64,000 nucleotides of DNA from positions 67,454 through 131,453 of the forward strand of contig PJMG01000022.1 of assembly GCA_003173895.1 (NCBI GenBank), read 5' to 3'. The stretch comes from Candidatus Levyibacteriota bacterium (GTDB lineage Bacteria; Patescibacteriota; Microgenomatia; Levybacterales; UBA12049). The notes beneath the pieces were generated by a model that saw nothing but the letters and a program-made list of their open reading frames with translations, made no database searches and had not been told where the DNA came from. This document shows, one piece after another, positions 10,852-57,471 of the stretch. The position numbers and the translations under genes were made by a program. The number at the start of each line of letters is the position of its first letter. The stretch's first letter is position 1.

Positions 10852-12824
<1,973 letters not shown>

Positions 12825-14105: not shown

Positions 14106-14120
14106 ACAAAGAGAGCTATA

Positions 14121-14290
14121 TGTATTTTTAAATAGCATTGAAAATTTGTTATGTTATATTTTGACATTAATAAAAGTTTAATGGCAAATTTTCACGAGTG
14201 AGAGAAGGATTAAAGTTTTAAATTACAAATAATGTTAGCGAACGCCTATTTAAAAATATATTCTGCGAGATTAGAAAAAGTTAGATAATT
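14121..14290. repeat. intergenic mosaic repeat element, copy A (segments P1, P2 and P3)
   Basis: Contains ttttaaatagcattgaaa (P1), cattaataaaagtttaatggcaaattttcacgag (P2) and ttagcgaacgcctatttaaaa-tata (P3). P1 and P3 recur at 57341-57445 and P2 recurs at 50180-50320. Confidence 0.5.
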
Positions 14291-45509: not shown

Positions 45510-45549
45510 TAATTCTGAATTATAAATTACGCATTCTAAATTATCTAAG

Positions 45550-45622
45550 TACCAGGGATGAGAGTCGAACTCATGACCGCAGCGTTATGAATGCTGTGCT
45601 CTAACCACTGAGCTACCCTGGC
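45550..45622 (-). tRNA. tRNA-Met (anticodon CAU; elongator-type or Ile2/lysidine type)
   Basis: Minus strand gccaggg-ta-gctc-agtggtta-gagc-a-cagca-ttCATaa-cgctg-cggtc-atgag-ttcgact-ctcat-ccctggt-a. Cloverleaf with a G1·U72 pair. Confidence 0.85.
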
Positions 45623-45695
45623 AAAATCATATTCAGAGTATATCAATTTACGGCTTCCTAAATCAATAAAATCTTGGTATAATTTATTTCTAATG

Positions 45696-45764
45696 CGCGG
45701 GGTAGTGTACGGTGCACATGAGGCTCATAATCTTATAGGCTGGGTTCAACTCCTAGCCCCGCAA
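45696..45764 (+). tRNA. tRNA-Met(CAU), initiator-like with a C1·A72 mismatch, reduced and unusual cloverleaf
   Basis: CGCGGGG...CCCCGCA-A ends nearly identical to E. coli tRNA-fMet. Anticodon loop CTCATAA, T-arm CTGGG-TTCAACT-CCTAG. Only a 3-bp D-stem and a weak anticodon stem (TGAGG/TCTTA with two G·U pairs). About 69 nt with no encoded CCA. Confidence 0.6.
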
Positions 45765-45866
45765 CACAGTTGATTTTAGACTGATTTAACAGGTTAAATT
45801 AACATCCACACATTCTCCATATAAAATACTTGCTAATTTTTATAGGACGAATTATAATCTCAGGAT

Positions 45867-46691
45867 ATGGCACAACAAAAATTAGAAATAGGTCAACAAG
45901 TACCAGCTACAGGAAGAACAATAAATCAAATATTACCATCCCTACCTCTTACTCCCGCATTCGGGAGTTTATTATGGACTTTAAGTGGACTTGCTCATAA
46001 AGATTTCGGGCAAGTAGCAGAAGGATTAGCAGGTTTAACCACTTCAATTGCAGTTGAATTTCCTATTGTTCGTAATGTTTCACGAAGAGGAAAGAGATTG
46101 ACAGAAATTTCCGTCTCAGAAAGAGTTGCAAATACACCCCTAGTTCAAGCAGAATCTCTAGCAATTCATATGGGGGCTGTAGATCTGTTATCCGATATGT
46201 TTCATTTGTCAGAAAAAACTAGATTTTCTTCAAATCAAATGGAATATTTACAGTTTGGAATTACTAAAAATCTTCTTAAACAACGCATTGATATAACAGA
46301 AGCAGCGCGTGTGGAAAAAGGTGATAAGACGCCGAAAAGCTCTTTACAGTTAACCGTAGAGAAAGCATATCTTACTCTTAATTCCCTCCAAACCCTATAC
46401 CTGCAACAACATCAAGAAAGCGAAATTAAATCTATTTCTATTAATAGAATGGCGGATGAGCTAGGAACTATCTTTGGTAATTTTCTCACAGATGCAGGAA
46501 CAAACTTAGCACTTGACTCTAAAGAGCTTATTTCTGCACAAGCAGAAGAATCCGATAGCATTCAAAACGAAGAAATAAAACAGCGATTGGCTTTGTTAAA
46601 AGGACATTTGCAAAAAAATGATAATATTGATTACGAAAAATTACATGCTGTTGATGATGCTATTAATACTGTTGTAGAGAGATATAAATAA
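45867..46691 (+). CDS. hypothetical protein (ORFan, higher GC than neighbours)
   Basis: 274-aa ORF with about 37% GC versus about 30% background and no recognisable motif. A perfect TATAAT lies 9 nt upstream of the ATG. Confidence 0.45.
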   Translation: MAQQKLEIGQQVPATGRTINQILPSLPLTPAFGSLLWTLSGLAHKDFGQVAEGLAGLTTSIAVEFPIVRNVSRRGKRLTEISVSERVANTPLVQAESLAIHMGAVDLLSDMFHLSEKTRFSSNQMEYLQFGITKNLLKQRIDITEAARVEKGDKTPKSSLQLTVEKAYLTLNSLQTLYLQQHQESEIKSISINRMADELGTIFGNFLTDAGTNLALDSKELISAQAEESDSIQNEEIKQRLALLKGHLQKNDNIDYEKLHAVDDAINTVVERYK

Positions 46692-46775
46692 CCTTCCACA
46701 AGATGTTTTTAACATTGGTTAAACCGAGTTCTAATTTACTCTAATCTTTACAACAGAACTTGTGGATATTAGAGA

Positions 46776-49001
46776 CTAACTGAGGTGTATTTCTTTATAT
46801 CTTTTAATAATAGCTATCTCAGATAAATAATCATTCATACTAACATAGTTCCCATTTCTTATAGCAAAATTTCCATAACCTCCAACCTGTGAATCGTACT
46901 CAAATAATGGTGTAGCTAAATCTCCTAAATCAATCCAGTCCTTTTTTAATCCAGTAGTTCCAATTTTATCCGTAGATGCATCTTCAGCACCAGCTATCCA
47001 AACCTCACCATTAGCTGTTTTACAGAATAAATAATCTAACTTACCATCTTTAGAAGGATATACTTCAATAGTAATTTCTCCATAAAGTTCTGTCTCTTGT
47101 TGCCAAGTCATTTTAGGTGCTTTATTTATATCTGGCTCATCATTTTCAGATGCAAAGATTAAATCTTCTGGCTTTGTTTTAGTTCCAGGCATAGTAAAAT
47201 GATTACTAATTCCTCCTATTACTCTAGCCCTTTCATTAACTTGTTCAAAGTAAGAAATATCTTCATGTCTTTCTGTAACAATTTTTCTTGCAGTACCCGC
47301 GAAAATTAATTCTGCATCGGAAATAGATCTTATTGGCATTCCTTTTTCAGAAATAGCTGCCAATGTTTTCTGCAGCTTAATAGGTAATGTTATGCTTACT
47401 TCATCTCTTCCCTTTCCATACCATACTACTCTACCTCCACGTTCTCTATATTGAGGTAAATATCTCCAAACACCTGTCGAATTACTTCTATAATAGGTTC
47501 TAGCGATAAACTTACCGTTAGTATCTTCCACATAAGCTAACACAGCAATTCTTCCATTATGTTTAGTATCATATGGTTGGGAAAACCATATAGTTTTTCC
47601 ACCAATCTCAGTCTTATATTCTGGTTGTAAACCTTCTCTTTTTATTATGTCTGAGTTTAATGCAGATCCATTAAAACTATCAGCATGAAATTCAGTATTT
47701 TTTAAAACCTTAATCCCTTCTGTATCTTCAGGTAATTCTATTTTAGGAGCTCTTAAGACATCTATATTGGTGGTTAATTGATCTACAAAATCTTTGATAT
47801 TAATATCATTAATATTAATTGGAATTTTTATATCAGAATTTACAGGTAATAAAACAATATTATTAATCCCAGATGCTAATGAGGGTGTTTTCTCTGGTGT
47901 AGGCCATAAATCTCTTCTATTTAAAATCCATCTAGTATCAAATATATTTCTTAAATTATGAGGAGTAATAAGTCCATCTTGGTAGCCGTCTCTAGATGCT
48001 GATTTAGTTCTTACTAGTAACACTTCTCCGCCATGACCAAATTCGTCTTTATTTTTATTTCTAACAAAAAATGTAAGTTCATTTGGGTCGGTTAATGTTT
48101 TTATAGATCTTCCATTTTGGGAATCTACAAATTTTACAGTGTAATTCTTAGGATCGTAAATTATTTCGTATATATTATTTCTAGCAGATGTAAATTGTAA
48201 TCTTACTAGATTCTCTGATTCCCTAGCTTTAGCGATATATTTAGCTAGAGCCAATACTTCTACCATAGTTCCAGACTTATGAATACTTTCTCCTGTTAAC
48301 ACTGTCATAGGATGAGAAAAATCTTTTACAGTTGAAAGATCTCTTACTCCAGATGGTGGAGCTTCCACTTGCTCTGATTTAGAATCTACCATGGAAAATC
48401 CAAATCCATATTTATCAGAAGTAAAATTAGGTTGTAAATGAAGTTTTTCTAATTGTTGAGTTTCTGCGTTAATAAATGTTATTTGTATCTCAGATTTATC
48501 ATCTCCTATTCTAATAGGAGTAACTGAAGAAACTGTTCCATATATATCTATATAATCATAAGTGTTTTTATCTAGGTATCTTAGTCCAACTTCCCAATTA
48601 TTATTTTCCAACCTAAGTGATATATTTGATGCTAATCCTTTTTTACTTTTTATTCCATCTTCTCTATTTATTTGTTTAATAGGAATAGTTATTTCAGAAA
48701 TTTTAACAGGAGCTTGATTAGAAACGTTAAGTTCAGAAATATCTTCTAAATTAATTACTGCTCCAGTCGGAAAGTCCGTTAGAGTATCATAGTATCTAAT
48801 AAGACCATGATCCTTACTTACTCCTAATCCACGCTTATTTCTAGTTGCCTTATTTAGCACCATAAGAGCTCTTTCTGCGCTGGGGTTAAATAGGGCAGCT
48901 AACTCTTGATCATTATCAAAAGATATGGGGCCTAAACCTGATTCTTGCTGTGCAAGTATACTCTTAAGAGAACCTAATTCTGTTTGTCTACCCATAAACA
49001 A
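46776..49001 (-). CDS. large hypothetical protein (741 aa, ORFan)
   Basis: Long uninterrupted ORF with elevated GC, no signal peptide or TM, and no Walker, nuclease or other motif I can recognise. Confidence 0.5.
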   Translation of the reverse strand: MFMGRQTELGSLKSILAQQESGLGPISFDNDQELAALFNPSAERALMVLNKATRNKRGLGVSKDHGLIRYYDTLTDFPTGAVINLEDISELNVSNQAPVKISEITIPIKQINREDGIKSKKGLASNISLRLENNNWEVGLRYLDKNTYDYIDIYGTVSSVTPIRIGDDKSEIQITFINAETQQLEKLHLQPNFTSDKYGFGFSMVDSKSEQVEAPPSGVRDLSTVKDFSHPMTVLTGESIHKSGTMVEVLALAKYIAKARESENLVRLQFTSARNNIYEIIYDPKNYTVKFVDSQNGRSIKTLTDPNELTFFVRNKNKDEFGHGGEVLLVRTKSASRDGYQDGLITPHNLRNIFDTRWILNRRDLWPTPEKTPSLASGINNIVLLPVNSDIKIPININDINIKDFVDQLTTNIDVLRAPKIELPEDTEGIKVLKNTEFHADSFNGSALNSDIIKREGLQPEYKTEIGGKTIWFSQPYDTKHNGRIAVLAYVEDTNGKFIARTYYRSNSTGVWRYLPQYRERGGRVVWYGKGRDEVSITLPIKLQKTLAAISEKGMPIRSISDAELIFAGTARKIVTERHEDISYFEQVNERARVIGGISNHFTMPGTKTKPEDLIFASENDEPDINKAPKMTWQQETELYGEITIEVYPSKDGKLDYLFCKTANGEVWIAGAEDASTDKIGTTGLKKDWIDLGDLATPLFEYDSQVGGYGNFAIRNGNYVSMNDYLSEIAIIKRYKEIHLS

Positions 49002-49083
49002 TATCTTATATTATTGCATCCCTACTGTCAATCTTGGAACCTCATACTTGTAAAAAGATTAATTATTCAAGGATAAATTAATT

Positions 49084-49542
49084 TTATCTATAAAGTGGAA
49101 TCATTTCTATAAGCTGAAGAGGTAAACCTTTTTTTAATTTTTCTACTACTTTTTCCGCACTACTGCCTGCGCGGAGATTACTTTGACTATTCTCTAAAAC
49201 TCTAGGACCAAAAATATTATCCAGGTCTTCTGGTCCTTCATAAATTATAACTGGTGATGGAGGCATTAGAGTTGGTGCTTCTGGAAGTAATCTTAGTGTA
49301 GCTACCCATGCTATTTGATCTCCATATTTTAATCCCATTTTAAAAGTTTCAATATTATTACCCCTAGCATTTTTAGTATAACTAAAAAGAATATCATCTT
49401 TATCTTTGTAAACTGCTTCTGTATCATCTGGAACTTCACCAAAAATAGTTCTCAATTCAGCAATTAAACTTAAATAATCTTCTACCCTGATTCTATCTTG
49501 ATTCCTAATTCTAGCTTCTGTCCTACTTGCATCTTCTAACAT
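49084..49542 (-). CDS. hypothetical protein (152 aa, ORFan)
   Basis: Same strand and composition as the 741-aa gene, which lies 82 nt upstream of it. Confidence 0.45.
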   Translation of the reverse strand: MLEDASRTEARIRNQDRIRVEDYLSLIAELRTIFGEVPDDTEAVYKDKDDILFSYTKNARGNNIETFKMGLKYGDQIAWVATLRLLPEAPTLMPPSPVIIYEGPEDLDNIFGPRVLENSQSNLRAGSSAEKVVEKLKKGLPLQLIEMIPLYR

Positions 49543-49618
49543 AGAAGAAGTATATCAAACAATTTAAGCCTGATCAATATTTTATAGGATACAATCTAAA
49601 TGTGTCTGAAATTAATTT

Positions 49619-49888
49619 TCAGTCAAATAAATCTTTAAGAGGTATTTTAAGTGCGCGAGCTACTTTTAGAAGTGTCATAAGAGTAGGATTTTTCTCTCCC
49701 CTCTCTACAAATCCCATATAACTTCTATCTACACCCACTTTAAAGGCTAAATCTTCTTGGCTCATATTTAAATCTATCCTCAAAGATTTAATCTTCTGAC
49801 CCAGTTTAATATGAGTTGATGAAAGTGCTTGCATGTTTTTATAGACTAAGCTAACGGAACTTAAGAGACCAGCTTCTGCTTGTAGCAT
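49619..49888 (-). CDS. XRE-family (Cro/CI-type) HTH transcriptional regulator
   Basis: LNMSQEDLAFKVGVDRSYMGFVERGEKNPTLMTLLKVARALKIP is an HTH_3 motif. Confidence 0.75.
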   Translation of the reverse strand: MLQAEAGLLSSVSLVYKNMQALSSTHIKLGQKIKSLRIDLNMSQEDLAFKVGVDRSYMGFVERGEKNPTLMTLLKVARALKIPLKDLFD

Positions 49889-49893
49889 TTAAA

Positions 49894-50163
49894 ATGAGAC
49901 TGTACTATAATGGGACTATAGGTAGCAATATGTATTCAAAAACATCTACATCTAACTCATTTTATGATTACGCTATTCATTTAGAAAATTACTTCCATTT
50001 ATTAGCTTTGCTTAGTCAAGTACTTCCAGAAGTAAAAACTGATAAAAAAGAAGCGTTGGAAAAAGAATTAGAAAATTTGTTTTTTTATTCCTTATATGCA
50101 GGCAATAGAATTGAAAAATTATTACAAGAATTTAAATCAAAATCAAATGATGACAAATCATAA
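49894..50163 (+). CDS. small hypothetical protein divergent from the XRE regulator
   Basis: 89-aa ORF. The true start may be the internal MYSK, giving a 40-nt divergent region. Confidence 0.3.
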   Translation: MRLYYNGTIGSNMYSKTSTSNSFYDYAIHLENYFHLLALLSQVLPEVKTDKKEALEKELENLFFYSLYAGNRIEKLLQEFKSKSNDDKS

Positions 50164-50470
50164 AAACAAGCAGAAGTGTGTTTTTTAATAACATTAAAAG
50201 TTTACTCTTTTATTATTTAGAGATGCTTGTCTTTTCAATTTTTGGTGAATTGGAATTTTCTCTTTAAAGAAATTTAGAAATTAAATTAAGTTTGGTGAGA
50301 AAATTCCACGAGCGAAGTCTGATGTTTTATTTTAAGTTAGATCAAACTTCCCTGAGCGCCACCAAAAATTGTGAAAGCAAACAACTCCCTAATGCTCGGG
50401 TAAATGTCTCTTTAAAAATACCTTCTGCGGGATTAATAGAAAAACAAATCTTTAAGCACAATCTATATTT

Positions 50471-51160
50471 TTATATAGAAAATGTTTTATTTTCCGCAAA
50501 AGAAAAATACGAAGATTTACAGATAATTAAATGCTCTAAAAGTTTTATTCCCATGATCTCCCCTGCTTCCTGAAGTTTTTTAGTAAAAATAATATCAGCA
50601 TCAGATGGATCTGGATCTTGAGATGGATGATTATGAGCCATAATTATAGAAATAGCTGGATTAGTAAGTGCAGGACTTAAAATCTCTTTTAGTTCTATAT
50701 GCATAGCGTTTATATTCCCTATCGCTATAGTTTCTTTTTTTATTAATTCATCTCGTGCATTGAGATATAACACTACTAGATTTTCCTGTCTTTTATCCGC
50801 TATCTCACGCAGTTGAGAAAGCATATCTAAAGTCGAGCGAATATAGGTTTTATTTACTGTTTCTTTACTAAAAATCCGCTGTCCTAATTCTATAGCAGCT
50901 AAAACTCTAGCTGCTTTAACACGACCAATACCAGGAATCTTAATCAAATTCTCCAAGGGAACTAAAGATATTTTCTCTATTGGAAATTGTTTTAAAATTT
51001 GTTCAGCTAAAGAAATTACATTTTGCTTCCTTCTACCAGTACCTAAAATAATTGCTAAAAGTTCTGCATTAGTTAGATTACTGCTACCCTTCTGTAGTAA
51101 TTTTTCTTGTGGTCTATCTGACTTGGGTAAATCTAATATTCTTTTTGTAGTTTTAAGCAT
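50471..51160 (-). CDS. radC: RadC-like JAB/MPN-domain protein
   Basis: N-terminal HhH-like region and the JAMM-like motif HNHPSQDPDPSDADI. Confidence 0.8.
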   Translation of the reverse strand: MLKTTKRILDLPKSDRPQEKLLQKGSSNLTNAELLAIILGTGRRKQNVISLAEQILKQFPIEKISLVPLENLIKIPGIGRVKAARVLAAIELGQRIFSKETVNKTYIRSTLDMLSQLREIADKRQENLVVLYLNARDELIKKETIAIGNINAMHIELKEILSPALTNPAISIIMAHNHPSQDPDPSDADIIFTKKLQEAGEIMGIKLLEHLIICKSSYFSFAENKTFSI

Positions 51161-51185
51161 ACATATAGTATACTAAGCCTAGTTT

Positions 51186-51503
51186 ATGAGTAAAAGAGTA
51201 TCTGCAACTATTCTTAATGAACTTTCAAAACGTATAAAAAAAGCACGTGAAGAATCTAATTTATCACAAAAAGAATTAGGCCAGAGCCTTGGTCTTTCTG
51301 ATAAAACTATATCATCATATGAAAAAGGTCGTAGTCTACCTTCTCTAAATCAATTAAAAAAGATTGCTCAAAAAACTGACTATCCACTTAGTTTTTTTAC
51401 TGAAGAAAAAAAATCTACTAATGATGTTCTGGAAAAGAAAATTAAAACTATTGAAAAAGAATTAACTGAGATAAAAAGATTACTAAAATACAAAGGTAAA
51501 TAA
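51186..51503 (+). CDS. XRE-family HTH regulator
   Basis: LSQKELGQSLGLSDKTISSYEKGRSLPSLNQLKKIA is an HTH_3 motif. Divergent from radC. Confidence 0.75.
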   Translation: MSKRVSATILNELSKRIKKAREESNLSQKELGQSLGLSDKTISSYEKGRSLPSLNQLKKIAQKTDYPLSFFTEEKKSTNDVLEKKIKTIEKELTEIKRLLKYKGK

Positions 51504-51556
51504 TCATCAAATTATTCCTCTTGACATCTTAGAATTAACTCTATTATTATGAGAAT

Positions 51557-51922
51557 ATGGAGGCTAAATTAGGATTTATTCTACTAGATAGAAATGAGAT
51601 TATTATTTATGTTTACCAAAAGGTTTTTGATAAGAAATGGGCACAAGCATGTTCTCACACTTATGAATTAGTTCCTTATTACTACAAAGAAATAATTTCA
51701 TCATTTGAAATAAGAGATTTTTTAATTAAAATTATACTTTCTCATCAATCAATTCCTAATATCGAATGGCATCTTTTTGGCAGACAAATTGAAGAACGTA
51801 TGTTTAATGAAGTAACTTTAGGTTTTAATTTCCCTTGTCTGCTTTTAAATTTATCTGAAGAACAGAAATTACTTTGCAAAGGCCTATTATTTGAGACAAT
51901 AAAACTTTTTTCTGAATCTTAG
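51557..51922 (+). CDS. hypothetical protein
   Basis: 121-aa ORF downstream of the XRE gene with no motifs. Confidence 0.4.
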   Translation: MEAKLGFILLDRNEIIIYVYQKVFDKKWAQACSHTYELVPYYYKEIISSFEIRDFLIKIILSHQSIPNIEWHLFGRQIEERMFNEVTLGFNFPCLLLNLSEEQKLLCKGLLFETIKLFSES

Positions 51923-52710
51923 AGAATTATATCTCCAGGGTTGAGATTGAAGTGAGTTGCAGCAGATTTTCCTTGAACTACTATTTCTAAAAATCTTTTA
52001 TCTTTTAAACCAGAACTCCCTACTATTAAACCAGGTTTATCATTTGGAACGTCTTTAAGTCTATCAAAACATTCAATTTCGCCTACTTTAGTTTTTAAAA
52101 CTTTACCGTGCTTATGTCCTACTTCCTCAGGTAGAATAGTAGTTTTACAGTTTCCAAAATTATCCACCCACCATACACTAGGAGCTAAATCATCCACTTT
52201 AGAAAATGAATATTCCTCTGTAGGAAAATCTTCCTTATCATAAGCCCATTTCGCGAGTCTTGGCATGTAATCGTAGCTTCTAAATTGACTATGGACTATT
52301 CTATCTCTGGGTTCTTTATCTAGTTTTCCCTTCTCAATCATGTAATCAATAACTGCTGCTACATCTGTAAGCTTTAAAGATTCTGCTATTCCAAATTTCT
52401 TAACTAAAGAGAGCATTTGTTCTGCAATAGTAGAAACAATCAGGGTTTTTCCATGGTAAAAATAGCCAAAAGGCGTTCCATTAGGCCATTTTTTACCTCT
52501 ACCGTGACGAGGCGCTACATTAGCTAAGATAATACCGTCTTCACCGTTTGAAGCATCTAAAATATCAATTAAATTACCAGCTCCTTCTACCTCGCTCCAA
52601 CCAATACCTACTGTAACTATAGATGTTTGTGGAAAAAGAATGGCTAATCTGGTAGCCTGCCTACCCATTGCACTTTGATCATTGCAATCATTAATTACTG
52701 TTACAAACAT
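51919..52710 (-). CDS. DUF62-family SAM hydroxide adenosyltransferase-like (fluorinase/chlorinase fold)
   Basis: N-terminal VTVINDCNDQSAMGRQA (hhTDFG-like), DNFGNCKTTI (D-FGN block) and a C-terminal GSSG...GDIIL beta-barrel domain. Confidence 0.5.
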   Translation of the reverse strand: MFVTVINDCNDQSAMGRQATRLAILFPQTSIVTVGIGWSEVEGAGNLIDILDASNGEDGIILANVAPRHGRGKKWPNGTPFGYFYHGKTLIVSTIAEQMLSLVKKFGIAESLKLTDVAAVIDYMIEKGKLDKEPRDRIVHSQFRSYDYMPRLAKWAYDKEDFPTEEYSFSKVDDLAPSVWWVDNFGNCKTTILPEEVGHKHGKVLKTKVGEIECFDRLKDVPNDKPGLIVGSSGLKDKRFLEIVVQGKSAATHFNLNPGDIIL

Positions 52711-52792
52711 AACACTGAGTATAAAGATATTGCTTGCTTAATGTCAATTCTGTAATTTTTTTAAAAAAATTGGTATAATAATAAATTAGAAT

Positions 52793-53125
52793 CTAAAAGA
52801 ATAGTTCCCACCATTTTTGCCAATTAGGTAAAGAGTTAATTTTTTCCGCTTTGGTTTGACTTTTACCTATCTCCATTAAAGCCACATTTTCACCCTTTTT
52901 ACTCATAAAAAGCTTATTACGAGCTGTCTCTTCTATATAAAAAGGTGAAGAAGCATTTTGAAGCTGATTTTTAATATTTTTATTCTCCATTTGCTCTTTT
53001 AAGAGTCTGGCTTTCTCTGTTTTTAAGATATCACGCTTTTGCCAAAGGCTATAAATAGAGCTTATTGACGAATAAATAGAAATCAGGCAAACTATTGTAA
53101 TTACTATAAAAATTATTTTTTTCAT
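52793..53125 (-). CDS. FtsB/DivIC-like septum-formation initiator
   Basis: N-terminal TM, coiled coil, and the C-terminal motif IEETARNKLFMSKKGE. Confidence 0.5.
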   Translation of the reverse strand: MKKIIFIVITIVCLISIYSSISSIYSLWQKRDILKTEKARLLKEQMENKNIKNQLQNASSPFYIEETARNKLFMSKKGENVALMEIGKSQTKAEKINSLPNWQKWWELFF

Positions 53126-53176
53126 TGACCTAAAGCCAAAAATCTGATATTATAGGTTCTCTAATAGTTAAAATTT

Positions 53177-54043
53177 ATGGCTAGTCTTAAACTTCGTGAA
53201 GCACACGAGAAATTTAAAAACTATTTAAAAGATAAAAATAAATCTAACTCTACTATTTTAGCATATGGGAAGGATTTAGATCAGTTGATATCTTTCTTAG
53301 AAATGCTCAAAAAAGAGCATTTACATGATGTGAAAAAGGAAGATATTGAAGCTTTTGTAGCTAAAATGAAGGGCAAGGGATATAGTGTTAAGTCTGTATC
53401 TCGTAAACTTAATTCTACTAGAACCTTTTATAACTTTTTAAAAATTAACGAATATTATACGGATGATCCATCTATTTTAGTAGAACCTCCTAGATATGCT
53501 CTAGATGAACCTAGAGTTTTAACTCCTACTGAATATCGAGCCCTTCGTGATGCTGCCAGAAAAGATCCTAGAATCTATGCTATTATCGAAGTTCTACTTC
53601 AAACTGGACTTAGGATTGCAGAACTAGCTGAACTTAGACTTTCTGATGTCTCCAAACATGAGCTTAAAATCAGAGCATTTGAAAAGCATGAAGAAAGAAC
53701 TGTACCTTTAAATAAATCTGCTAAAGAAGCCCTAGAAGGTTATTTAAAAATTAGAAAGGAAGTAAATGATGATCATGTATTTATTACTAAAACAGGCAAA
53801 CCATTTTTAATCAGAAATATTAGAACTTCTGTAGAAAGATTCTTTAAAATGGCAGAAATTAAAAATGTAACTATTAATGATCTTAGGAATACTTTTATAG
53901 CTCACCATTTAAAACATGGTGTTTCTTTAATTGTACTATCTAAAATAGTCGGTCATAAAAGACTATCCACTACTGAAAGATATTTAAAATATATTAAAGA
54001 TGGTCAAAAGAAAAATAGTACTAACCACTTAACAGAATTATAA
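53177..54043 (+). CDS. xerC: tyrosine site-specific recombinase XerC/XerD family
   Basis: Core-binding N-domain plus catalytic R (LLQTGLRIAEL), HxxR (HHLKH...), and RY at the C-terminus (TTERYLKY). Confidence 0.85.
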   Translation: MASLKLREAHEKFKNYLKDKNKSNSTILAYGKDLDQLISFLEMLKKEHLHDVKKEDIEAFVAKMKGKGYSVKSVSRKLNSTRTFYNFLKINEYYTDDPSILVEPPRYALDEPRVLTPTEYRALRDAARKDPRIYAIIEVLLQTGLRIAELAELRLSDVSKHELKIRAFEKHEERTVPLNKSAKEALEGYLKIRKEVNDDHVFITKTGKPFLIRNIRTSVERFFKMAEIKNVTINDLRNTFIAHHLKHGVSLIVLSKIVGHKRLSTTERYLKYIKDGQKKNSTNHLTEL

Positions 54044-54114
54044 TTTCTTCAAATTGCTCCTAATTTTATAACGAATAACTTGTTTTTAAGTGTCTCTTCT
54101 AGTACACTTTTTTA

Positions 54115-54393
54115 ATGACTCCTGAAACAGAGAGTTGGCTTACACAACAACAATTATCTGATTTGCTGGATATATCTTTACATAAAATTAGACCAGTAGT
54201 TAAATCTTTAGCTAATTTAGCTGAAGATCATAGAAGAACGACTGGAGAAGAAGGTTGTTATATCTCCGAAGGAACAGGAGAAAAAGTTATATTTCTAGCA
54301 AAAGAAGATCCACAGGATAATCGTTTTATGTTAGTTAATAGTCGTTCTATACCTACTTTAAGGAGAGCTTTTGGCATTCCGATAGAAAATTAA
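54115..54393 (+). CDS. small hypothetical protein
   Basis: 92-aa ORF downstream of the recombinase. Confidence 0.35.
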   Translation: MTPETESWLTQQQLSDLLDISLHKIRPVVKSLANLAEDHRRTTGEEGCYISEGTGEKVIFLAKEDPQDNRFMLVNSRSIPTLRRAFGIPIEN

Positions 54394-54406
54394 TTTTTGA
54401 GACGTG

Positions 54407-54478
54407 TGCGCCCAGCTGGACTCGAACCAACGACACGGTGTGTATAAGACACCTGCTCTACCACTGAGCTATGGGCGC
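54407..54478 (-). tRNA. tRNA-Ile with anticodon TAT (UAU), which would decode AUA
   Basis: Minus strand GCGCCCA-TA-GCTC-AGTGGTA-GAGC-A-GGTGT-CTTATAC-ACACC-GTGTC-GTTGG-TTCGAGT-CCAGC-TGGGCGC-A. Perfect cloverleaf. Confidence 0.8.
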
Positions 54479-54499
54479 GTGCTTGATATTATATCAAAA

Positions 54500-56860
54500 T
54501 TAGAGCTTTGCGCGGACTGCTATTTCTGCTTCTACTTGTTCTTTACTTTTAGCATATTTTAAACGTGATAATTCTTTTATAATTTGTGCTACTTTCATAC
54601 TCTCTTTTGCTTTTTCTTCAGCCATATTTTTTACCATATCTACTGAAAATGGTGTAACTGGTTCACCACCTACAATAGTTTTAACATAAGCATTATATTT
54701 ATCTACATTAATTAAATCTGCTTCATTAAAAACAGGTTGAAATTCGTGCTGGAGATAATTGGCATCTTGAACTCCTACTCTAAAAGAGACCAAAGTTCCT
54801 ACGTTACCAAAAACAGCATTTTTAACTTCTTCTTGCATTTGACCTATAAATTGATTAGCTACAATTAAGTTCAAACGGTATTTACGAGCCTCAGATAGAA
54901 TAGTGGCAAAATCTTGAGAAGCGAAGTTTTGGAACTCATCAACATATAAGAAGAAATCTTTTCTTTGATCCATAGGCATATTTTGTCTACTCATAGCAGC
55001 TACCACTATTTTAGGAATTAAAATAAGTCCTAAGAAATTAGAATTTTCCTCACCAATTATTCCTTTAGATAAATTTATTAAGAGAATTTTTTGGTTATCC
55101 ATTATGTCACGTAGATCAAAAGAACTTTTTGATTGACCTATGATATTTCTCATTAGTTTATTTGTAATGAAACGACCGAATTTAGAAACTGTATAATCTA
55201 ATACTTCTGACTTATGAAAATCGTTAGTTTGAGCTATTTGATCGGTCCAATAACGCCTAACTATAGGATCGGTAACTTTAGGTAAAAGTTCTTGAACAAA
55301 TGAAGAATCTGTCAAAACGCGTTGGACTTCCACGAAAGTACTACCAGGTTCATACATACAAGTTAACATAGCGTTTCTGATTCCATGTTCAAGACGGGGT
55401 CCTACAATACCTGTTTGATTAGGATCAAAAAGCTTATAGAAAAGACCAATCGTAGATGAAACCACATAATGTTTCTGTTCTTCAGAATAGGCTTCCATAA
55501 TGTTAAGTCCCATAGGACGAGCTGTATCCGAAGGATCAAATAAAACCACATCTTCTGCTCGTTTGGCTGGAATACGAGGAAGTACGGATTCTATTAAATC
55601 TCCATGAGGATCAATGACACAAACACCCTGACCATTTTCAATATCCTGAATAATCATATCTTTAAGGAATTCAGATTTTCCAGTTCCGGTCTTTCCAATG
55701 ATATACATATGACGCCTGCGATCTTCAAGCCCCATATAAACTGATTTAGCAATGCCGCGAAAGAGACTTCGTCCGATATAGAGTCCTTCTGAAGCAATTT
55801 GTGTAGGTGCTGGAGCACGTTTAGAAGTTAACCAATAAATATGAGGAGTGGTAATTCCTTTATTTGGGAAGTGAAAAATAGTGGCTAATTCTTCACTAGT
55901 CATAATGGAGGTTTGATCGCGCAGGGGCCAAAATCTATAAACAAAATCTTTAACAGATAAATTTTTAAACCAAGGTTTACATTTTTCAAAACTATTTCCA
56001 CCTGAAAATTGTGCAAAGGCTCCCTCTATATTACCCAAATGTGCTTCAGCTTTTTCTTTATCATGGGAAGAAACTACTAATCTTACTACTACGTTAAAAC
56101 CGGGTTTACTGATTTTATTTTCAATTCCTTCCAATTCTTTAGGATCGCTAGAATATTTAGCAGTTTCCGGATTAGATTCTTTTTTCTTAGTTTCAGCTAT
56201 AAATTTACGTCCTAATTTTTTCCATTTCGCCGCTGCTGGACTTACCATAATTTGGATAGCTGCACCTTCACCTTCACTCATTTTGGCTAAAACAGAAGTT
56301 AGAAGAGATAGACCATCGGTTGGTAATTCTTTAAAAATTTTAATGGGCTTATATGCTGATTCTTCTAATTTTAAAGATGCAAAAGCTACTTTTCCGTTTT
56401 TAGAAAAAATGTTGTAATCATTACCAATAATATTTTTTTGTTTAGGATCTGATTCTGTAACTTCTGAAATTTCTGCATCGGGATAAGCACCATTAATAAG
56501 CTTTTCTAATTGATCTCTAAATTTATTAGGAGTATGAATATAAAATCTGATATCAGCTGGCTGCCCTACAATTTCAAATGAAACATGAGAAGCAGGAGTA
56601 AATCTTCCACCTTTACTTAGAGTGGAAAGTCCTGAAAACAATTGCTCTGCAGCATCAATCTTAATTTCATTTTCGCGAGGTACAGCTACTTGAAGTAGTA
56701 CTGAATCCAAAGATGCTTTTTCTCTATTTCGATATTTATATAAAAGAAAAAGTAAATATCCACCAAAACCTACTCCAGCTACTATAGCTGCTAAAACAGC
56801 CAGAACTAAAACTATAAGAATGAAAAGCAGTAAAAAATTCTGAGAAGATAAAAGTTCCAT
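54500..56860 (-). CDS. membrane-anchored VirB4/TraC-like (AAA_10/DUF87/HerA-FtsK class) ATPase
   Basis: N-terminal TM helices, Walker A YIIGKTGTGKSEF, Walker B LYVDEFQNF, and VIDPHGDL. 786 aa. Confidence 0.5.
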   Translation of the reverse strand: MELLSSQNFLLLFILIVLVLAVLAAIVAGVGFGGYLLFLLYKYRNREKASLDSVLLQVAVPRENEIKIDAAEQLFSGLSTLSKGGRFTPASHVSFEIVGQPADIRFYIHTPNKFRDQLEKLINGAYPDAEISEVTESDPKQKNIIGNDYNIFSKNGKVAFASLKLEESAYKPIKIFKELPTDGLSLLTSVLAKMSEGEGAAIQIMVSPAAAKWKKLGRKFIAETKKKESNPETAKYSSDPKELEGIENKISKPGFNVVVRLVVSSHDKEKAEAHLGNIEGAFAQFSGGNSFEKCKPWFKNLSVKDFVYRFWPLRDQTSIMTSEELATIFHFPNKGITTPHIYWLTSKRAPAPTQIASEGLYIGRSLFRGIAKSVYMGLEDRRRHMYIIGKTGTGKSEFLKDMIIQDIENGQGVCVIDPHGDLIESVLPRIPAKRAEDVVLFDPSDTARPMGLNIMEAYSEEQKHYVVSSTIGLFYKLFDPNQTGIVGPRLEHGIRNAMLTCMYEPGSTFVEVQRVLTDSSFVQELLPKVTDPIVRRYWTDQIAQTNDFHKSEVLDYTVSKFGRFITNKLMRNIIGQSKSSFDLRDIMDNQKILLINLSKGIIGEENSNFLGLILIPKIVVAAMSRQNMPMDQRKDFFLYVDEFQNFASQDFATILSEARKYRLNLIVANQFIGQMQEEVKNAVFGNVGTLVSFRVGVQDANYLQHEFQPVFNEADLINVDKYNAYVKTIVGGEPVTPFSVDMVKNMAEEKAKESMKVAQIIKELSRLKYAKSKEQVEAEIAVRAKL

Positions 56861-56863
56861 AAA

Positions 56864-57283
56864 TTACTTTTTGTTTATTTGATCATAATTTTTTATAACT
56901 AAAAATGAAAGCCATAGCAAAGGATCTGAAGAGTCGTTAAAAAGAGAAAATCCATGAGTTAGTTTTATAGCATCGCTTAAAGAAATAGGTAAATTTAGCT
57001 TTGAATTATTAGCCAAATTTGTATTATTAGTTGACACTGGAGTATTTACTGGAACAGGATTTTGATTTTGAGCTAAATTAGAAGTAGTATTTTTTTCTAT
57101 TTTTTCAATTTGACTTTCATTTTTAGGTGTAGTTTCTTGTATTGGAGCAGTTTCTATAGATACACCTGAATTTTCTATTGGATCTAACTTAACGGCAGCA
57201 CCTTCTTTTCCTACAGTAGGAACACTTACGGGAGTTGATTGATTTTGGAGATTACTATTTTGAGTATTTTGATCGTCTTGCAT
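56864..57283 (-). CDS. hypothetical Asn/Thr/Pro-rich low-complexity protein
   Basis: 139-aa ORF, 4 nt upstream of the ATPase gene on the same strand. Confidence 0.4.
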   Translation of the reverse strand: MQDDQNTQNSNLQNQSTPVSVPTVGKEGAAVKLDPIENSGVSIETAPIQETTPKNESQIEKIEKNTTSNLAQNQNPVPVNTPVSTNNTNLANNSKLNLPISLSDAIKLTHGFSLFNDSSDPLLWLSFLVIKNYDQINKK

Positions 57284-57340
57284 AATGTTATGATACCATT
57301 TGAAGCGTATATATTCAATTAAATTAAGTACTTCTTATTA

Positions 57341-57445
57341 AAGTGAGTAGCAATGCTTTTAAATAGCATTGAAATTCGCTATTTTACAAATATTAAAATA
57401 AAATAAACTTACTATTAGCGAACGCCTATTTAAAAGTATATGCTA
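57341..57445. repeat. intergenic mosaic repeat element, copy B (segments P1 and P3)
   Basis: ttttaaatagcattgaaa and ttagcgaacgcctatttaaaa-gtata match copy A at 14121-14265. P1 lies inside the hairpin caatgct/agcattg. Confidence 0.5.
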
Positions 57446-57471
57446 CAAGCTTAATTATAAAAAATTTAATT

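What the first reader, a model, noticed from the sequence alone, without database searches (positions are those of the whole stretch)
45550..57283. Roughly 12 kb accessory, mobile-element-like segment bounded by tRNA genes
The stretch from the tRNA-Met pair (45550-45764) to the tRNA-Ile(TAT) at 54407-54478 and the adjacent VirB4/TraC-like membrane ATPase contains the ORFan cassette, two XRE regulators, RadC, a DUF62 protein, a XerC-like tyrosine recombinase and several small ORFans. One copy of the intergenic repeat family lies inside this segment at 50180-50320 (copy C) and another flanks its right end at 57341-57445 (copy B). This gene content (integrase, RadC, Cro/CI regulators, conjugation-type ATPase, tRNA boundaries) is characteristic of integrative elements or degraded ICEs. 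I could not find a duplicated tRNA 3' end (att site) by eye.
Basis: inference. Interest (0 to 1): 0.55.

Follow-up and report, generated by a model that had tools for sequence, protein, structure and literature searches.

The report
Core gene neighbourhood with small tRNA-side insert
The proposed 12 kb "mobile island" is mostly an ordinary, conserved stretch of chromosome of an uncultivated Levyibacteria-like (CPR) bacterium; only a 3.85 kb three-gene insert beside the initiator-type tRNA-Met gene is truly accessory, and it lies in a slot whose contents differ from one relative to the next.

Summary
In related metagenome contigs (ATPase 58-77% identical) the order nrdR-RNR-cobAT-ATPase-tRNA-Ile(UAU)-Xer-DivIC-(DUF62-orf121-XRE-RadC-XRE)-tRNA-fMet/tRNA-Met-tgt recurs. 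The "integrase", RadC, both XRE regulators, DUF62, the "conjugation" ATPase and all three tRNAs are therefore vertically inherited core synteny. The ATPase is a VirD4/TraD-like coupling-protein homologue of a kind reported to be common on Patescibacteria chromosomes away from virB4.

Only 45766-49618 (orf274, orf741, orf152) is window-specific. In relative L167 the orthologue of xre89 ends 4 nt from the tRNA-fMet 3' end. In the window 3,853 bp lie between them. This interval ranges from 8 bp to 7 kb among relatives, with unrelated cargo. Three relatives carry direct repeats of the tRNA-fMet 3' end plus flank, so the site is an integration hotspot.

The window itself has no att repeat, no integrase of its own, no relaxase or VirB4, and normal codon usage.

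orf741 is not a pure ORFan. Its C-terminal 320 aa belong to an uncharacterised family of 823 clusters, with a confident model that matches no PDB fold.

Verdict: ordinary flexible islet in a core neighbourhood; low to moderate interest.

The parts
45549..45622 (-). tRNA-Met(CAU), elongator-type (MetA). It is half of a divergent tRNA-Met pair that is conserved in relatives.
   Evidence: ARAGORN and Rfam, 65 bits. The same pair is present in L093, L096, L098, L102, L147 and L165.
45696..45765 (+). Initiator-like tRNA-Met(CAU) (MetB, with a C1xA72 mismatch). Its 3' end faces the variable slot.
   Evidence: sequence. Orthologues with near-identical sequence occur in 13 loci. The initiator identity is inferred from the C1/A72 mismatch.
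45766..49618 (.). Window-specific 3,853-bp cassette, the only truly accessory part. It lies between the tRNA-fMet 3' end and the stop codon of xre89.
   Evidence: In L167 the xre89 orthologue (71% identical) ends 4 nt from the tRNA-fMet 3' end. None of its three genes has a homologue in any of the syntenic related loci.
45867..46691 (+). orf274, hypothetical protein, no detectable homologue.
   Evidence: No Pfam, NCBIfam, PHROG or PADLOC hit. Singleton cluster. No hit in the fetched loci.
46776..49001 (-). orf741. The N-terminal ~400 aa are unique. The C-terminal ~320 aa (DNA 46779-47789) are a widespread uncharacterised domain.
   Evidence: The word-based search finds only itself. Full HMMER finds 823 cluster representatives matching residues ~420-738 at 35-49% identity. 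AF2 model: pLDDT 89, pTM 0.89. No PDB fold or sequence match. No Pfam in it or in 8 homologues.
49084..49542 (-). orf152, hypothetical protein, co-directional between xre89 and orf741.
49619..49888 (-). XRE/HTH_3 regulator (xre89). Conserved core gene, not part of the insert.
   Evidence: Pfam HTH_3 at 1e-14. 71% identical to the syntenic L167 gene.
50169..50431 (.). Palindromic intergenic element (repeat copy C) between the convergent orf89 and RadC.
   Evidence: Fold z-score -5.7 on the minus strand and -5.4 on the plus strand. Shares the 19-nt motif TTTAAAAATANNTTCTGCG with copy A. No Rfam match. Not conserved in L167 or L168.
50471..51160 (-). Full-length RadC (UPF0758_N plus RadC JAB domain). 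Conserved core gene.
   Evidence: NCBIfam NF000642, 218 bits against a cut-off of 180. 54% identical in syntenic L167 and L168. The module orf121-like/XRE/RadC is also present in L173.
51186..51922 (+). XRE regulator xre105 (51186-51503) and conserved hypothetical orf121 (51557-51922), divergent from RadC.
   Evidence: 53% and 32-36% identity to the syntenic genes in L167 and L168.
51919..52710 (-). DUF62 / SAM hydroxide adenosyltransferase-family protein.
   Evidence: Pfam SAM_HAT_C at 4e-8. 1,208 homologues. Follows DivIC in L083, L085, L165, L167 and L168.
52793..53125 (-). FtsB/DivIC septum-formation initiator (core cell-division gene).
   Evidence: Pfam DivIC at 1.6e-12. Syntenic in at least 14 related loci.
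53177..54043 (+). Xer-type tyrosine recombinase, conserved chromosomal copy rather than an island integrase.
   Evidence: Phage_int_SAM_1 plus Phage_integrase domains. XerD, XerC and XerA models at 1e-45 to 1e-48, but below the equivalog cut-offs. 65-68% identical at the same position in L083-L102, L165 and L167.
54115..54393 (+). orf92, small hypothetical protein in a second variable gap between Xer and tRNA-Ile.
   Evidence: No Pfam, NCBIfam or PHROG hit; only a weak PADLOC match to a 29-residue stretch. In relatives this gap holds other genes: PBP2 in L093 and an M20 peptidase in L168.
54406..54478 (-). tRNA-Ile(UAU), a conserved downstream partner of the ATPase gene.
   Evidence: Present downstream of the ATPase in 55 of 71 related loci that have at least 300 bp of flank.
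54500..57283 (-). orf139 (56864-57283) and a VirD4/TraD-like membrane ATPase (54500-56860), likely one operon. Conserved CPR chromosomal genes.
   Evidence: 416 relatives were found and the best 80 are 58-77% identical over the full length. The family is annotated DUF8128+DUF87+TrwB in relatives. Literature: PMC12102498.

Best explanation
The span 45.5-57.3 kb is a conserved chromosomal neighbourhood of a Levyibacteria-like (Microgenomates/CPR) bacterium. It is not a mobile element. The ancestral order in the clade is nrdR-RNR-cobAT-(small ORFs)-coupling-protein-like ATPase-tRNA-Ile(UAU)-Xer-FtsB/DivIC-DUF62-orf121-XRE-RadC-XRE-tRNA-fMet/tRNA-Met-(mur genes)-tgt.

One position in this order is a flexible slot: the few bases just 3' of the initiator-type tRNA-Met. 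In the window the slot holds a 3,853-bp three-gene cassette (orf152 and orf741 co-directional with the conserved xre89, plus the convergent orf274).

Shown: the synteny, the empty site in a relative, the variability of the slot, and the absence of att repeats, an integrase or a composition shift in the window.

Inferred: the cassette arrived by insertion at the tRNA-fMet 3' end, the way att-like duplications in relatives suggest, and has since lost its distal repeat, or it came in by illegitimate recombination. It has been resident long enough, or came from a similar enough donor, to show native codon usage.

Its function is unknown. orf741 carries a widespread, autonomously folding C-terminal domain that in other genomes often ends giant proteins. 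My best guess (weak) is a lineage-specific interaction or effector protein, not mobility machinery.
For: - Synteny. tblastn of window proteins on 80 related loci shows the same order. tRNA-Ile(UAU) lies downstream of the ATPase in 55 of 71 loci. Xer and DivIC lie downstream in 7 of 10 loci with ATPase identity of at least 65% and at least 3 kb of flank.
- L167 carries every gene from RNR to xre89 in window order. Identities: RNR 73%, ATPase 75%, Xer 66%, DUF62 62.5%, xre105 53%, RadC 54%, xre89 71%. Its xre89 orthologue stops 4 nt before tRNA-fMet.
- L165 and L168 show the same backbone with different cargo.
- The DivIC-to-tRNA-fMet distance is 8 bp to 7,027 bp in 10 genomes. The cargo is unrelated: PIN and Phd toxin-antitoxin genes, NUDIX, an epimerase and hypotheticals, with no integrase among those scanned.
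- Relatives carry att-like direct repeats of the tRNA-fMet 3' end: L121 19 nt exact; L158 44 nt at 91% (E 4e-14); L165 40 nt at 82.5% (0 of 60 shuffles reach the score).
- The window has no such repeat, and its codon usage and GC3 are unremarkable.
- Cassette genes are absent from all the syntenic related loci fetched via the ATPase, DUF62 and RadC, from IMG/VR, and from phage and plasmid records.
- VirD4-like coupling-protein homologues are reported in 2,918 Patescibacteria genomes, mostly far from virB4 and without relaxases (PMC12102498).
Against: - The nearest comparators are only 60-77% identical at protein level, so the time and direction of the event (gain here versus loss elsewhere) cannot be fixed.
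- No congeneric genome was available. The contigs of the closest relatives (L083, L085) end inside DUF62.
- The cassette has no mobility signature of its own, so insertion at the tRNA is inferred from relatives only.
- The window comes from a metagenome-derived contig. I could not check read support for the two junctions.
Confidence: 0.8

Rival explanations
1. One reading: the whole ~12 kb is an integrative element or degraded ICE bounded by tRNA genes, with Xer as its integrase and the ATPase as a conjugation remnant.
For: The gene names look right: a tyrosine recombinase next to a tRNA 3' end, RadC, two XRE regulators and a TraD-like ATPase. The 3' ends of tRNA-fMet and tRNA-Ile both face inward.
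Against: All these genes and both tRNA boundaries are syntenic in relatives that lack the cassette. Their identities to L167 are in the same range as the flanking housekeeping genes. There is no att repeat. There is no relaxase or VirB4 hit in the 45 largest ORFs of the window, apart from one far-sub-threshold VirB4-model match of the ATPase itself. There is no composition shift. A core cell-division gene, DivIC, sits in the middle.
Confidence: 0.03
2. The 3.85-kb cassette is ancestral or locally evolved (fast-evolving or de novo genes) and was lost in the compared relatives. On this view it was not inserted.
For: Native codon usage. No att repeat and no integrase. orf152 and orf741 continue the xre89 transcription direction. 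Small neighbouring ORFs such as orf139 and orf92 are also unalignable between relatives.
Against: The orf741 C-terminal domain is 35-49% identical to proteins scattered singly in other CPR genomes, once beside a serine recombinase. That pattern fits transfer rather than local origin. The slot carries unrelated cargo and att-like scars in other relatives. L167 has a clean 4-nt junction.
Confidence: 0.12
3. The cassette junctions are an assembly or binning chimera in a metagenome-assembled contig.
For: The source is a 152.6-kb metagenome-type contig. The independent Logan assembly of SRR490139 recovers only 51.85-54.4 kb as one piece and none of the cassette proteins.
Against: Codon usage and GC3 of the cassette match the rest of the contig. 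Both junctions fall in normal intergenic spacers with intact flanking genes. Logan contigs are fragmentary throughout.
Confidence: 0.03

Closest known systems
tRNA-adjacent genomic islets and flexible-genome hotspots (integration at the 3' end of a tRNA gene)
   Same: The accessory DNA lies immediately 3' of a tRNA gene between conserved core genes. Its content differs between relatives. Relatives show direct repeats of the tRNA 3' end.
   Different: No integrase is encoded in the window's insert, nor among the slot ORFs scanned in relatives. There is no att repeat in the window. The insert is very small (3.85 kb, 3 genes). In L158 the repeat also includes a downstream terminator-like hairpin.
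Integrative and conjugative elements (ICEs)
   Same: A tyrosine recombinase, XRE regulators, RadC and a TraD/VirD4-like ATPase occur within 8 kb of one another.
   Different: These genes are conserved chromosomal synteny. There is no relaxase, no VirB4, no att site, and no presence/absence of the block as a unit.
Chromosomal VirD4-like coupling-protein homologues of Patescibacteria (PMC12102498)
   Same: A membrane-anchored P-loop ATPase with TrwB and TraG-D_C similarity. It is widespread in CPR and, within this 64-kb window, has no virB4 or relaxase nearby.
   Different: The tight linkage seen here to tRNA-Ile(UAU) and to the RNR-cobAT block came up in my own analysis; I did not check whether that paper describes it. 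Function is unknown.
XerC/XerD/XerA chromosome-dimer-resolution recombinases
   Same: Two-domain architecture, full-length alignment to the XerD, XerC and XerA models, and vertical conservation.
   Different: Scores (161-165 bits) are far below the equivalog cut-offs (330-335). Asn replaces the first His of the HxxR box (read by eye). No dif site was identified.

Membership tests
Integrative conjugative element (ICE) | An element-encoded integrase that comes and goes with the element | tested here: not met
   The only recombinase (53177-54043) is present at the same position, 65-68% identical, in relatives lacking the cassette.
Integrative conjugative element (ICE) | Flanking direct repeats (attL/attR), usually a duplicated tRNA 3' end | tested here: not met
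   No tRNA-derived repeat in 64 kb at four stringencies, and no second copy of the 9-nt core.
Integrative conjugative element (ICE) | Conjugation module: relaxase, VirB4-type ATPase and coupling protein | tested here: not met
   Only a coupling-protein-like ATPase is present. No relaxase or VirB4 family hit in any ORF of 42-61.5 kb or in the 20 largest ORFs of 1-34 kb, other than a far-sub-threshold VirB4-model match of that ATPase (18.7 bits against a 590-bit cut-off).
Integrative conjugative element (ICE) | Presence or absence of the whole block between related genomes | tested here: not met
   49619-57283 is syntenic in L165, L167, L168 and in L083-L102. Only 45766-49618 varies.
tRNA-targeted genomic island or islet | Located directly at the 3' end of a tRNA gene, with an empty site in a relative | tested here: met
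   The cassette starts 1 nt after the tRNA-fMet 3' end. In L167 the xre89 orthologue is 4 nt from the same tRNA end.
tRNA-targeted genomic island or islet | Duplicated tRNA 3' segment at the distal end | tested here: not met
   Absent in the window. Present in relatives L121, L158 and L165.
tRNA-targeted genomic island or islet | Atypical composition relative to the host genome | tested here: not met
   Cassette GC is 0.323 against 0.295 for the window. GC3 (0.13-0.20) and codon distance (0.095-0.166) fall within the range of other genes of similar length.
XerC/XerD-type housekeeping recombinase | N-terminal SAM-like domain plus C-terminal catalytic domain, with a full-length match to Xer models | tested here: met
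   Phage_int_SAM_1 at 7e-17 and Phage_integrase at 5e-28. XerD, XerC and XerA models are aligned over residues 11-278.
XerC/XerD-type housekeeping recombinase | Score above the NCBIfam equivalog cut-off for XerC or XerD | tested here: not met
   165 bits against 330 (XerD), 161 against 335 (XerC), 154 against 220 (XerA). It is therefore filed only as Xer-like.
XerC/XerD-type housekeeping recombinase | Acts at a chromosomal dif site | not testable with these tools
   No dif consensus is known for this lineage and the window covers only 64 kb of the genome.
Type IV coupling protein (VirD4/TraD/TrwB) | N-terminal membrane anchor, P-loop NTPase core, and matches to the TrwB and TraG-D_C domains | tested here: met
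   TrwB_AAD_bind scores 32.8 bits (cut-off 20.5) and TraG-D_C 23.1 (cut-off 22). A hydrophobic N-terminus is visible in the sequence. The matches cover only short stretches, and the NCBIfam TraD models score far below their cut-offs.
Type IV coupling protein (VirD4/TraD/TrwB) | Genomic association with a relaxase or T4SS | tested here: not met
   None in the window. The literature reports the same for most Patescibacteria homologues.
RadC (UPF0758) | Full-length N-terminal HhH domain plus JAB domain, above the equivalog cut-off | tested here: met
   NF000642 scores 218 bits against a cut-off of 180. Pfam RadC at 2e-36 and UPF0758_N at 3e-24.
Integron-like capture platform | IntI-type integrase with attI and an array of attC-flanked cassettes | tested here: inconclusive
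   The integron-integrase models match only weakly (64 bits against 265; 24.6 against 435). Repeat-flanked ~1-kb modules exist in L158 and L165 but not in the window. No attC structure was tested.

The most novel reading that the evidence does not exclude
The interval just 3' of tRNA-fMet in Levyibacteria-like CPR genomes may be an integrase-less, site-specific gene-capture site. On this reading, short one- or two-gene modules flanked by copies of the tRNA-fMet 3' end plus its downstream hairpin (seen in L121, L158 and L165) are inserted by a host enzyme, most plausibly the conserved Xer recombinase encoded 3-7 kb away. That would make it an IMEX- or integron-like platform in an ultra-small genome. 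The window's cassette would be an older capture whose distal repeat has decayed, and orf741 would carry a new-fold cargo domain that travels this way.
Probability: 0.07. Interest if true: 0.65.

Novelty: new member of a known kind. Interest (0 to 1): 0.27.

Why it matters
As posed, the finding is mostly a false alarm. In CPR genomes an "integrase", RadC, XRE regulators and a TraD-like ATPase close together do not indicate an ICE, because they form a conserved chromosomal block. That is a useful caution for annotating mobile elements in Patescibacteria.

What remains is modest but real:
- A small flexible slot at tRNA-fMet, with att-like scars in relatives and no resident integrase.
- A large uncharacterised protein-domain family (823 clusters) with a confident predicted structure that matches nothing in the PDB.
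- A conserved linkage of the coupling-protein-like ATPase to tRNA-Ile(UAU). This could help in working out what that widespread CPR ATPase does.

Tried and rejected
- att search. tRNA-derived repeats were sought at several lengths and mismatch levels, as a 9-nt core, and by BLAST of the tRNA end plus 60-nt flank. Nothing turned up in the window.
- Composition. GC, GC3 and codon-usage distance per gene show no outliers.
- Genome collection scan with tgt. Only one close hit (L001, Levyibacteriota, 67%), on an 8-kb contig with different local order, so it was too distant to be useful.
- Exact-protein look-ups of orf741 gave nothing. The Logan contig covers only 51.85-54.4 kb.
- Defence-system models (PADLOC) gave only generic HTH hits and a weak DruB match (E 4e-4). 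I rejected these.
- PHROGs gave only generic regulator and integrase families, plus phrog_5156 (function unknown) for the ATPase.
- Phage or plasmid origin of orf741: no hits in IMG/VR, INPHARED or PLSDB.
- ADP-ribosyltransferase idea for the orf741 domain (invariant R...SxS...E). I rejected it because Foldseek finds no PDB fold match (best E 0.066, TM 0.13).
- Promoter and terminator scan of the cassette: counts equal chance.
- Rfam on the RadC-xre89 spacer gave nothing. The spacer is not conserved in L167 or L168.
- The intergenic repeats as element boundaries. I rejected this: they are palindromic elements just downstream of gene stops, and copy A lies 31 kb away.

Full report
**1. What is in the sequence**

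The window is AT-rich (GC about 0.29). ARAGORN and Rfam agree on three tRNAs:
- tRNA-Met(CAU) at 45549-45622 (-).
- A second tRNA-Met(CAU) at 45696-45765 (+). Its acceptor stem has a C1xA72 mismatch, so I call it initiator-like (inference from the sequence).
- tRNA-Ile(UAU) at 54406-54478 (-).

Between and beside them lie these genes:

| Gene | Coordinates (strand) | Assignment |
|---|---|---|
| orf274 | 45867-46691 (+) | no family hit |
| orf741 | 46776-49001 (-) | no family hit |
| orf152 | 49084-49542 (-) | no family hit |
| xre89 | 49619-49888 (-) | XRE/HTH_3 regulator |
| orf89 | 49894-50163 (+) | doubtful ORF |
| RadC | 50471-51160 (-) | full length; NF000642 218 bits vs cut-off 180 |
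| xre105 | 51186-51503 (+) | XRE/HTH_3 regulator |
| orf121 | 51557-51922 (+) | conserved hypothetical |
| DUF62 | 51919-52710 (-) | SAM_HAT_C family |
| Xer | 53177-54043 (+) | Xer-type tyrosine recombinase |
| orf92 | 54115-54393 (+) | no Pfam, NCBIfam or PHROG hit |
| ATPase | 54500-56860 (-) | 786-aa membrane ATPase |
| orf139 | 56864-57283 (-) | no family hit |

The ATPase's meaningful matches are to coupling-protein models (TrwB_AAD_bind, TraG-D_C, SXT_TraD, CD1115) and DUF87, so VirD4/TraD-like is the better label. The only VirB4 model that matches does so at 18.7 bits against a 590-bit cut-off.

The flanks are housekeeping genes. On the left are an M20 peptidase, deformylase, a kinase and tgt. 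On the right are cobalamin adenosyltransferase, a NUDIX protein, ribonucleotide reductase and NrdR. The 20 largest ORFs of 1-34 kb are also housekeeping or envelope genes: MetRS, TatD, GroEL, LepA, MurJ, glycosyltransferases and UvrD. None is a relaxase, VirB4 or transposase.

**2.

*att duplication.* No part of any of the three tRNAs recurs in the 64 kb at 12 nt exact, 16 nt with 2 mismatches, 20 with 3 or 25 with 5. The only exception is the generic D-arm 12-mer shared by MetA and tRNA-Ile. The 9-nt core CCCCGCAAC has no second copy even with one mismatch. The tRNA end plus 60-nt flank has no BLAST match between it and DivIC.

*Composition.* GC3 of the segment's genes ranges 0.09-0.28 (cassette genes 0.13-0.20), close to the 0.08-0.25 seen in the window's other genes; only the short DivIC (0.28) and xre89 (0.26) sit slightly above. 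Codon-usage distance behaves the same way. For example orf741 scores 0.095, as do other genes of 700-800 codons.

**3. Comparison with relatives**

The genome has no close relative in the searchable collections. Most of its proteins are singleton clusters from one 152.6-kb NCBI contig. The best species-representative hit is a Levyibacteriota MAG with tgt 67% identical.

A metagenome scan with the ATPase was far more informative. It found 416 relatives, and the best 80 are 58-77% identical over the full length. Mapping the window's proteins and tRNAs on these loci gave:
- tRNA-Ile(UAU) downstream of the ATPase in 55 of 71 loci with at least 300 bp of flank (27 of them within 300 bp).
- cobAT and RNR upstream in 18 of 29 loci with at least 5 kb of upstream flank.
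- In the closer subset (ATPase at least 65% identical, at least 3 kb of flank), tRNA-Ile, Xer (-) and DivIC (+) downstream in 7 of 10 loci.
- A divergent tRNA-fMet/tRNA-Met pair and then tgt following these genes in L093, L096, L098, L102, L147 and L165.

Contexts of DUF62 and RadC homologues filled in the middle.
- L165 (275-kb contig): ATPase-tRNA-Ile-113aa-Xer-DivIC-DUF62-[4.7 kb of unrelated small ORFs]-tRNA-fMet/tRNA-Met-MurL-MurD-tgt.
- L167 (52-kb contig): every window gene in order. The order is RNR, cobAT, ATPase, tRNA-Ile, Xer, DivIC, DUF62, an orf121-like gene, XRE, RadC, XRE, then tRNA-fMet, tRNA-Met, murI, murD and tgt.
- L168 has the same backbone with extra genes inserted.
- L173 shows that orf121-like/XRE/RadC is a conserved three-gene module.

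Identities between the window and L167:

| Protein | Identity to L167 |
|---|---|
| RNR | 73% |
| cobAT | 52% |
| ATPase | 75% |
| Xer | 66% |
| DivIC | 46% |
| DUF62 | 62.5% |
| orf121 | 33-36% |
| xre105 | 53% |
| RadC | 54% |
| xre89 | 71% |
| tgt | 49% |

There is no discontinuity between the supposed island genes and the housekeeping flanks.

**4. Where the real accessory DNA is**

In L167 the xre89 orthologue ends at 11238 and the 3' end of tRNA-fMet is at 11243, a gap of 4 nt. In the window, the xre89 stop (49619) and the tRNA-fMet 3' end (45765) are separated by 3,853 bp carrying orf152, orf741 and orf274. None of these three genes has a homologue in any of the syntenic related loci.

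The accessory segment is therefore 45766-49618, one third of the span proposed. It contains none of the hallmark genes.

Two smaller differences also exist. The window lacks murI/murD between the tRNA-Met pair and tgt. It also lacks the 470-600-aa gene that relatives have between cobAT and the ATPase.

**5. The slot is a hotspot**

The distance from DivIC to the tRNA-fMet 3' end varies widely:

| Genome | DivIC to tRNA-fMet 3' end (bp) |
|---|---|
| L090 | 8 |
| L102 | 407 |
| L096 | 927 |
| L121 | 1,176 |
| L095 | 1,754 |
| L167 | 2,784 |
| L158 | 4,141 |
| L093 | 4,293 |
| L165 | 5,590 |
| window | 7,027 |

The extra genes are unrelated between genomes. They include Phd and PIN toxin-antitoxin genes, a NUDIX protein, an epimerase fragment, an HTH protein, a GIY-YIG protein and many hypotheticals. 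No integrase or transposase is among those scanned.

Three relatives carry direct repeats of the tRNA-fMet 3' end inside the slot:
- L121: 19 nt exact, 145 nt from the tRNA.
- L158: 44 nt at 91% (E 4e-14), made of about 10 nt of tRNA end plus a hairpin. The copies are 1.0 kb apart and bracket a NUDIX gene and a 94-aa gene.
- L165: 40 nt at 82.5% (0 of 60 shuffles reach the score), plus a weaker third copy.

About 33 nt of the tRNA-proximal flank are also conserved between the window and L165, giving 83% over 106 nt with the tRNA included.

This is good evidence that the tRNA-fMet 3' end is a recombination target in the clade. In the window itself no distal copy survives. Site-specific insertion of its cassette is therefore an inference.

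**6. What the cassette encodes**

The word-indexed search found only orf741 itself. An exhaustive HMMER search found 823 cluster representatives (293 with E below 1e-30). All match residues ~420-738 at 35-49% identity. The matches fall in proteins of 300 to over 5,000 aa, frequently at the extreme C-terminus.
- Neither orf741 nor eight homologues have any Pfam domain.
- An AlphaFold model built on a 25-sequence alignment is confident (pLDDT 89, pTM 0.89).
- The model has no PDB sequence match and no PDB fold match (best E 0.066, TM 0.13).
- Its only structural match is an uncharacterised Hokovirus protein (E 5e-9, TMq 0.60).
- Homologues sit singly among housekeeping genes of CPR-type contigs, once next to a large serine recombinase.
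- None occur in IMG/VR, phage or plasmid collections.

orf274 and orf152 remain without any detectable relative. Function is unknown. The only positive statement is that orf741 is a real gene carrying a widespread autonomous domain.

**7. The hallmark genes reconsidered**

*Recombinase.* It aligns over its full length to the XerD, XerC and XerA models but well below their equivalog cut-offs. It is conserved at one position in relatives. I file it as a Xer-like chromosomal recombinase, not as XerC or XerD and not as an island integrase.

*ATPase.* It belongs to a family annotated DUF8128+DUF87+TrwB in relatives. A 2025 survey reports 5,713 VirD4-like coupling-protein homologues in 2,918 Patescibacteria genomes. 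Only 148 of them are near virB4 and relaxases are rare. The authors suggest possible exaptation for other functions (PMC12102498).

*RadC.* This is the full-length chromosomal type, in a conserved module with an XRE regulator and a small protein.

**8. The intergenic repeats**

Copies A (~14110-14270), B (~57345-57440) and C (~50169-50431) are palindromic elements with similar inverted termini.
- A and B share 55 nt at 80% and 31 nt at 87%.
- A and C share an exact 19-nt motif, with 0.08 matches expected by chance.
- Fold z-scores are -5.7 and -5.4 for C (two strands), -2.8 for B and -1.5 for A.
- Each lies 20-30 nt past the stop codon of a minus-strand gene.
- They are absent from all related loci.
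- They do not bound the cassette.

**9. Verdict**

The interpretation as a 12-kb integrative element or degraded ICE is not supported. What exists is a conserved core neighbourhood containing a 3.85-kb lineage-specific islet in a tRNA-fMet-adjacent hotspot. This is a new member of a well-known kind. Interest is low to moderate. It is raised slightly by three things: the integrase-less att-like repeats in relatives, the unknown-fold domain family, and the conserved ATPase-tRNA-Ile(UAU) linkage.

Noticed in passing
window 14110-14270, 50169-50431, 57345-57440: A family of palindromic intergenic elements with similar inverted termini (roughly ..TAT(A/T)TTTTAAATAG..). Each lies 20-30 nt downstream of a minus-strand gene's stop codon. 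Copy C folds with z = -5.7. There is no Rfam match, and the family is absent from 172 related loci. They could be MITE/REP-like elements or bidirectional terminators.
   Followed up: partly
L167 11243-11515 (intron 11291-11493, minus strand); probably also L121 around 8013-8100: The initiator-type tRNA-Met of relatives is interrupted in the anticodon loop by a group I intron (Rfam RF00028, 64 bits). The window's copy has no intron.
   Followed up: partly
L121 7850-7868; L158 9083-9126; L165 13151-13202 and 14299-14338: Direct repeats of the tRNA-fMet 3' end plus its downstream flank inside the variable slot. They bracket modules of about 0.15-1.2 kb that encode no integrase (att-like scars).
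   Followed up: partly
window 46779-47789 (orf741 residues ~405-741): An uncharacterised ~320-aa domain family: 823 clusters at 50% identity, often at the C-terminus of giant proteins. It has no Pfam entry. The AF2 model is confident and has no PDB fold match; its only structural hit is an uncharacterised protein of the giant virus Hokovirus HKV1.
   Followed up: partly
window 54406-56860 and 55 of 71 related loci: The coupling-protein-like ATPase gene is followed by tRNA-Ile(UAU) across a wide range of relatives, often within 300 bp. The reason for this linkage is unknown.
   Followed up: partly
window 53177-54043: In the conserved Xer-like recombinase the first His of the HxxR box reads Asn (..NDLRN..). 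The L093 orthologue also has Asn at that position (..NDLRH..). Read by eye only.
   Followed up: no
L165 2369-2448; L165 and L167 RNR genes: Relatives have an AdoCbl-II riboswitch upstream of cobAT (L165) and intein/LAGLIDADG insertions in RNR (1,206-1,606 aa). The window's RNR is 812 aa, and no riboswitch reached the Rfam threshold in the window.
   Followed up: no
window 45510-45548 and 57284-57471: The window lacks murI/murL-murD between the tRNA-Met pair and tgt. It also lacks the 470-600-aa gene between cobAT and the ATPase operon. Relatives L165 and L167 have both.
   Followed up: partly
L081/L082 (Logan SRR490139 contig, equal to window ~51854-54406): The only independent assembly of this sequence breaks exactly at the 3' boundary of tRNA-Ile and inside orf121. 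This could reflect low coverage or strain variation at those points.
   Followed up: no
L001 378-1067 and L158 6079-6768: A 229-aa HTH_23-containing protein sits next to the elongator tRNA-Met in two relatives. It may be a homing-endonuclease-like gene. It is absent from the window.
   Followed up: no
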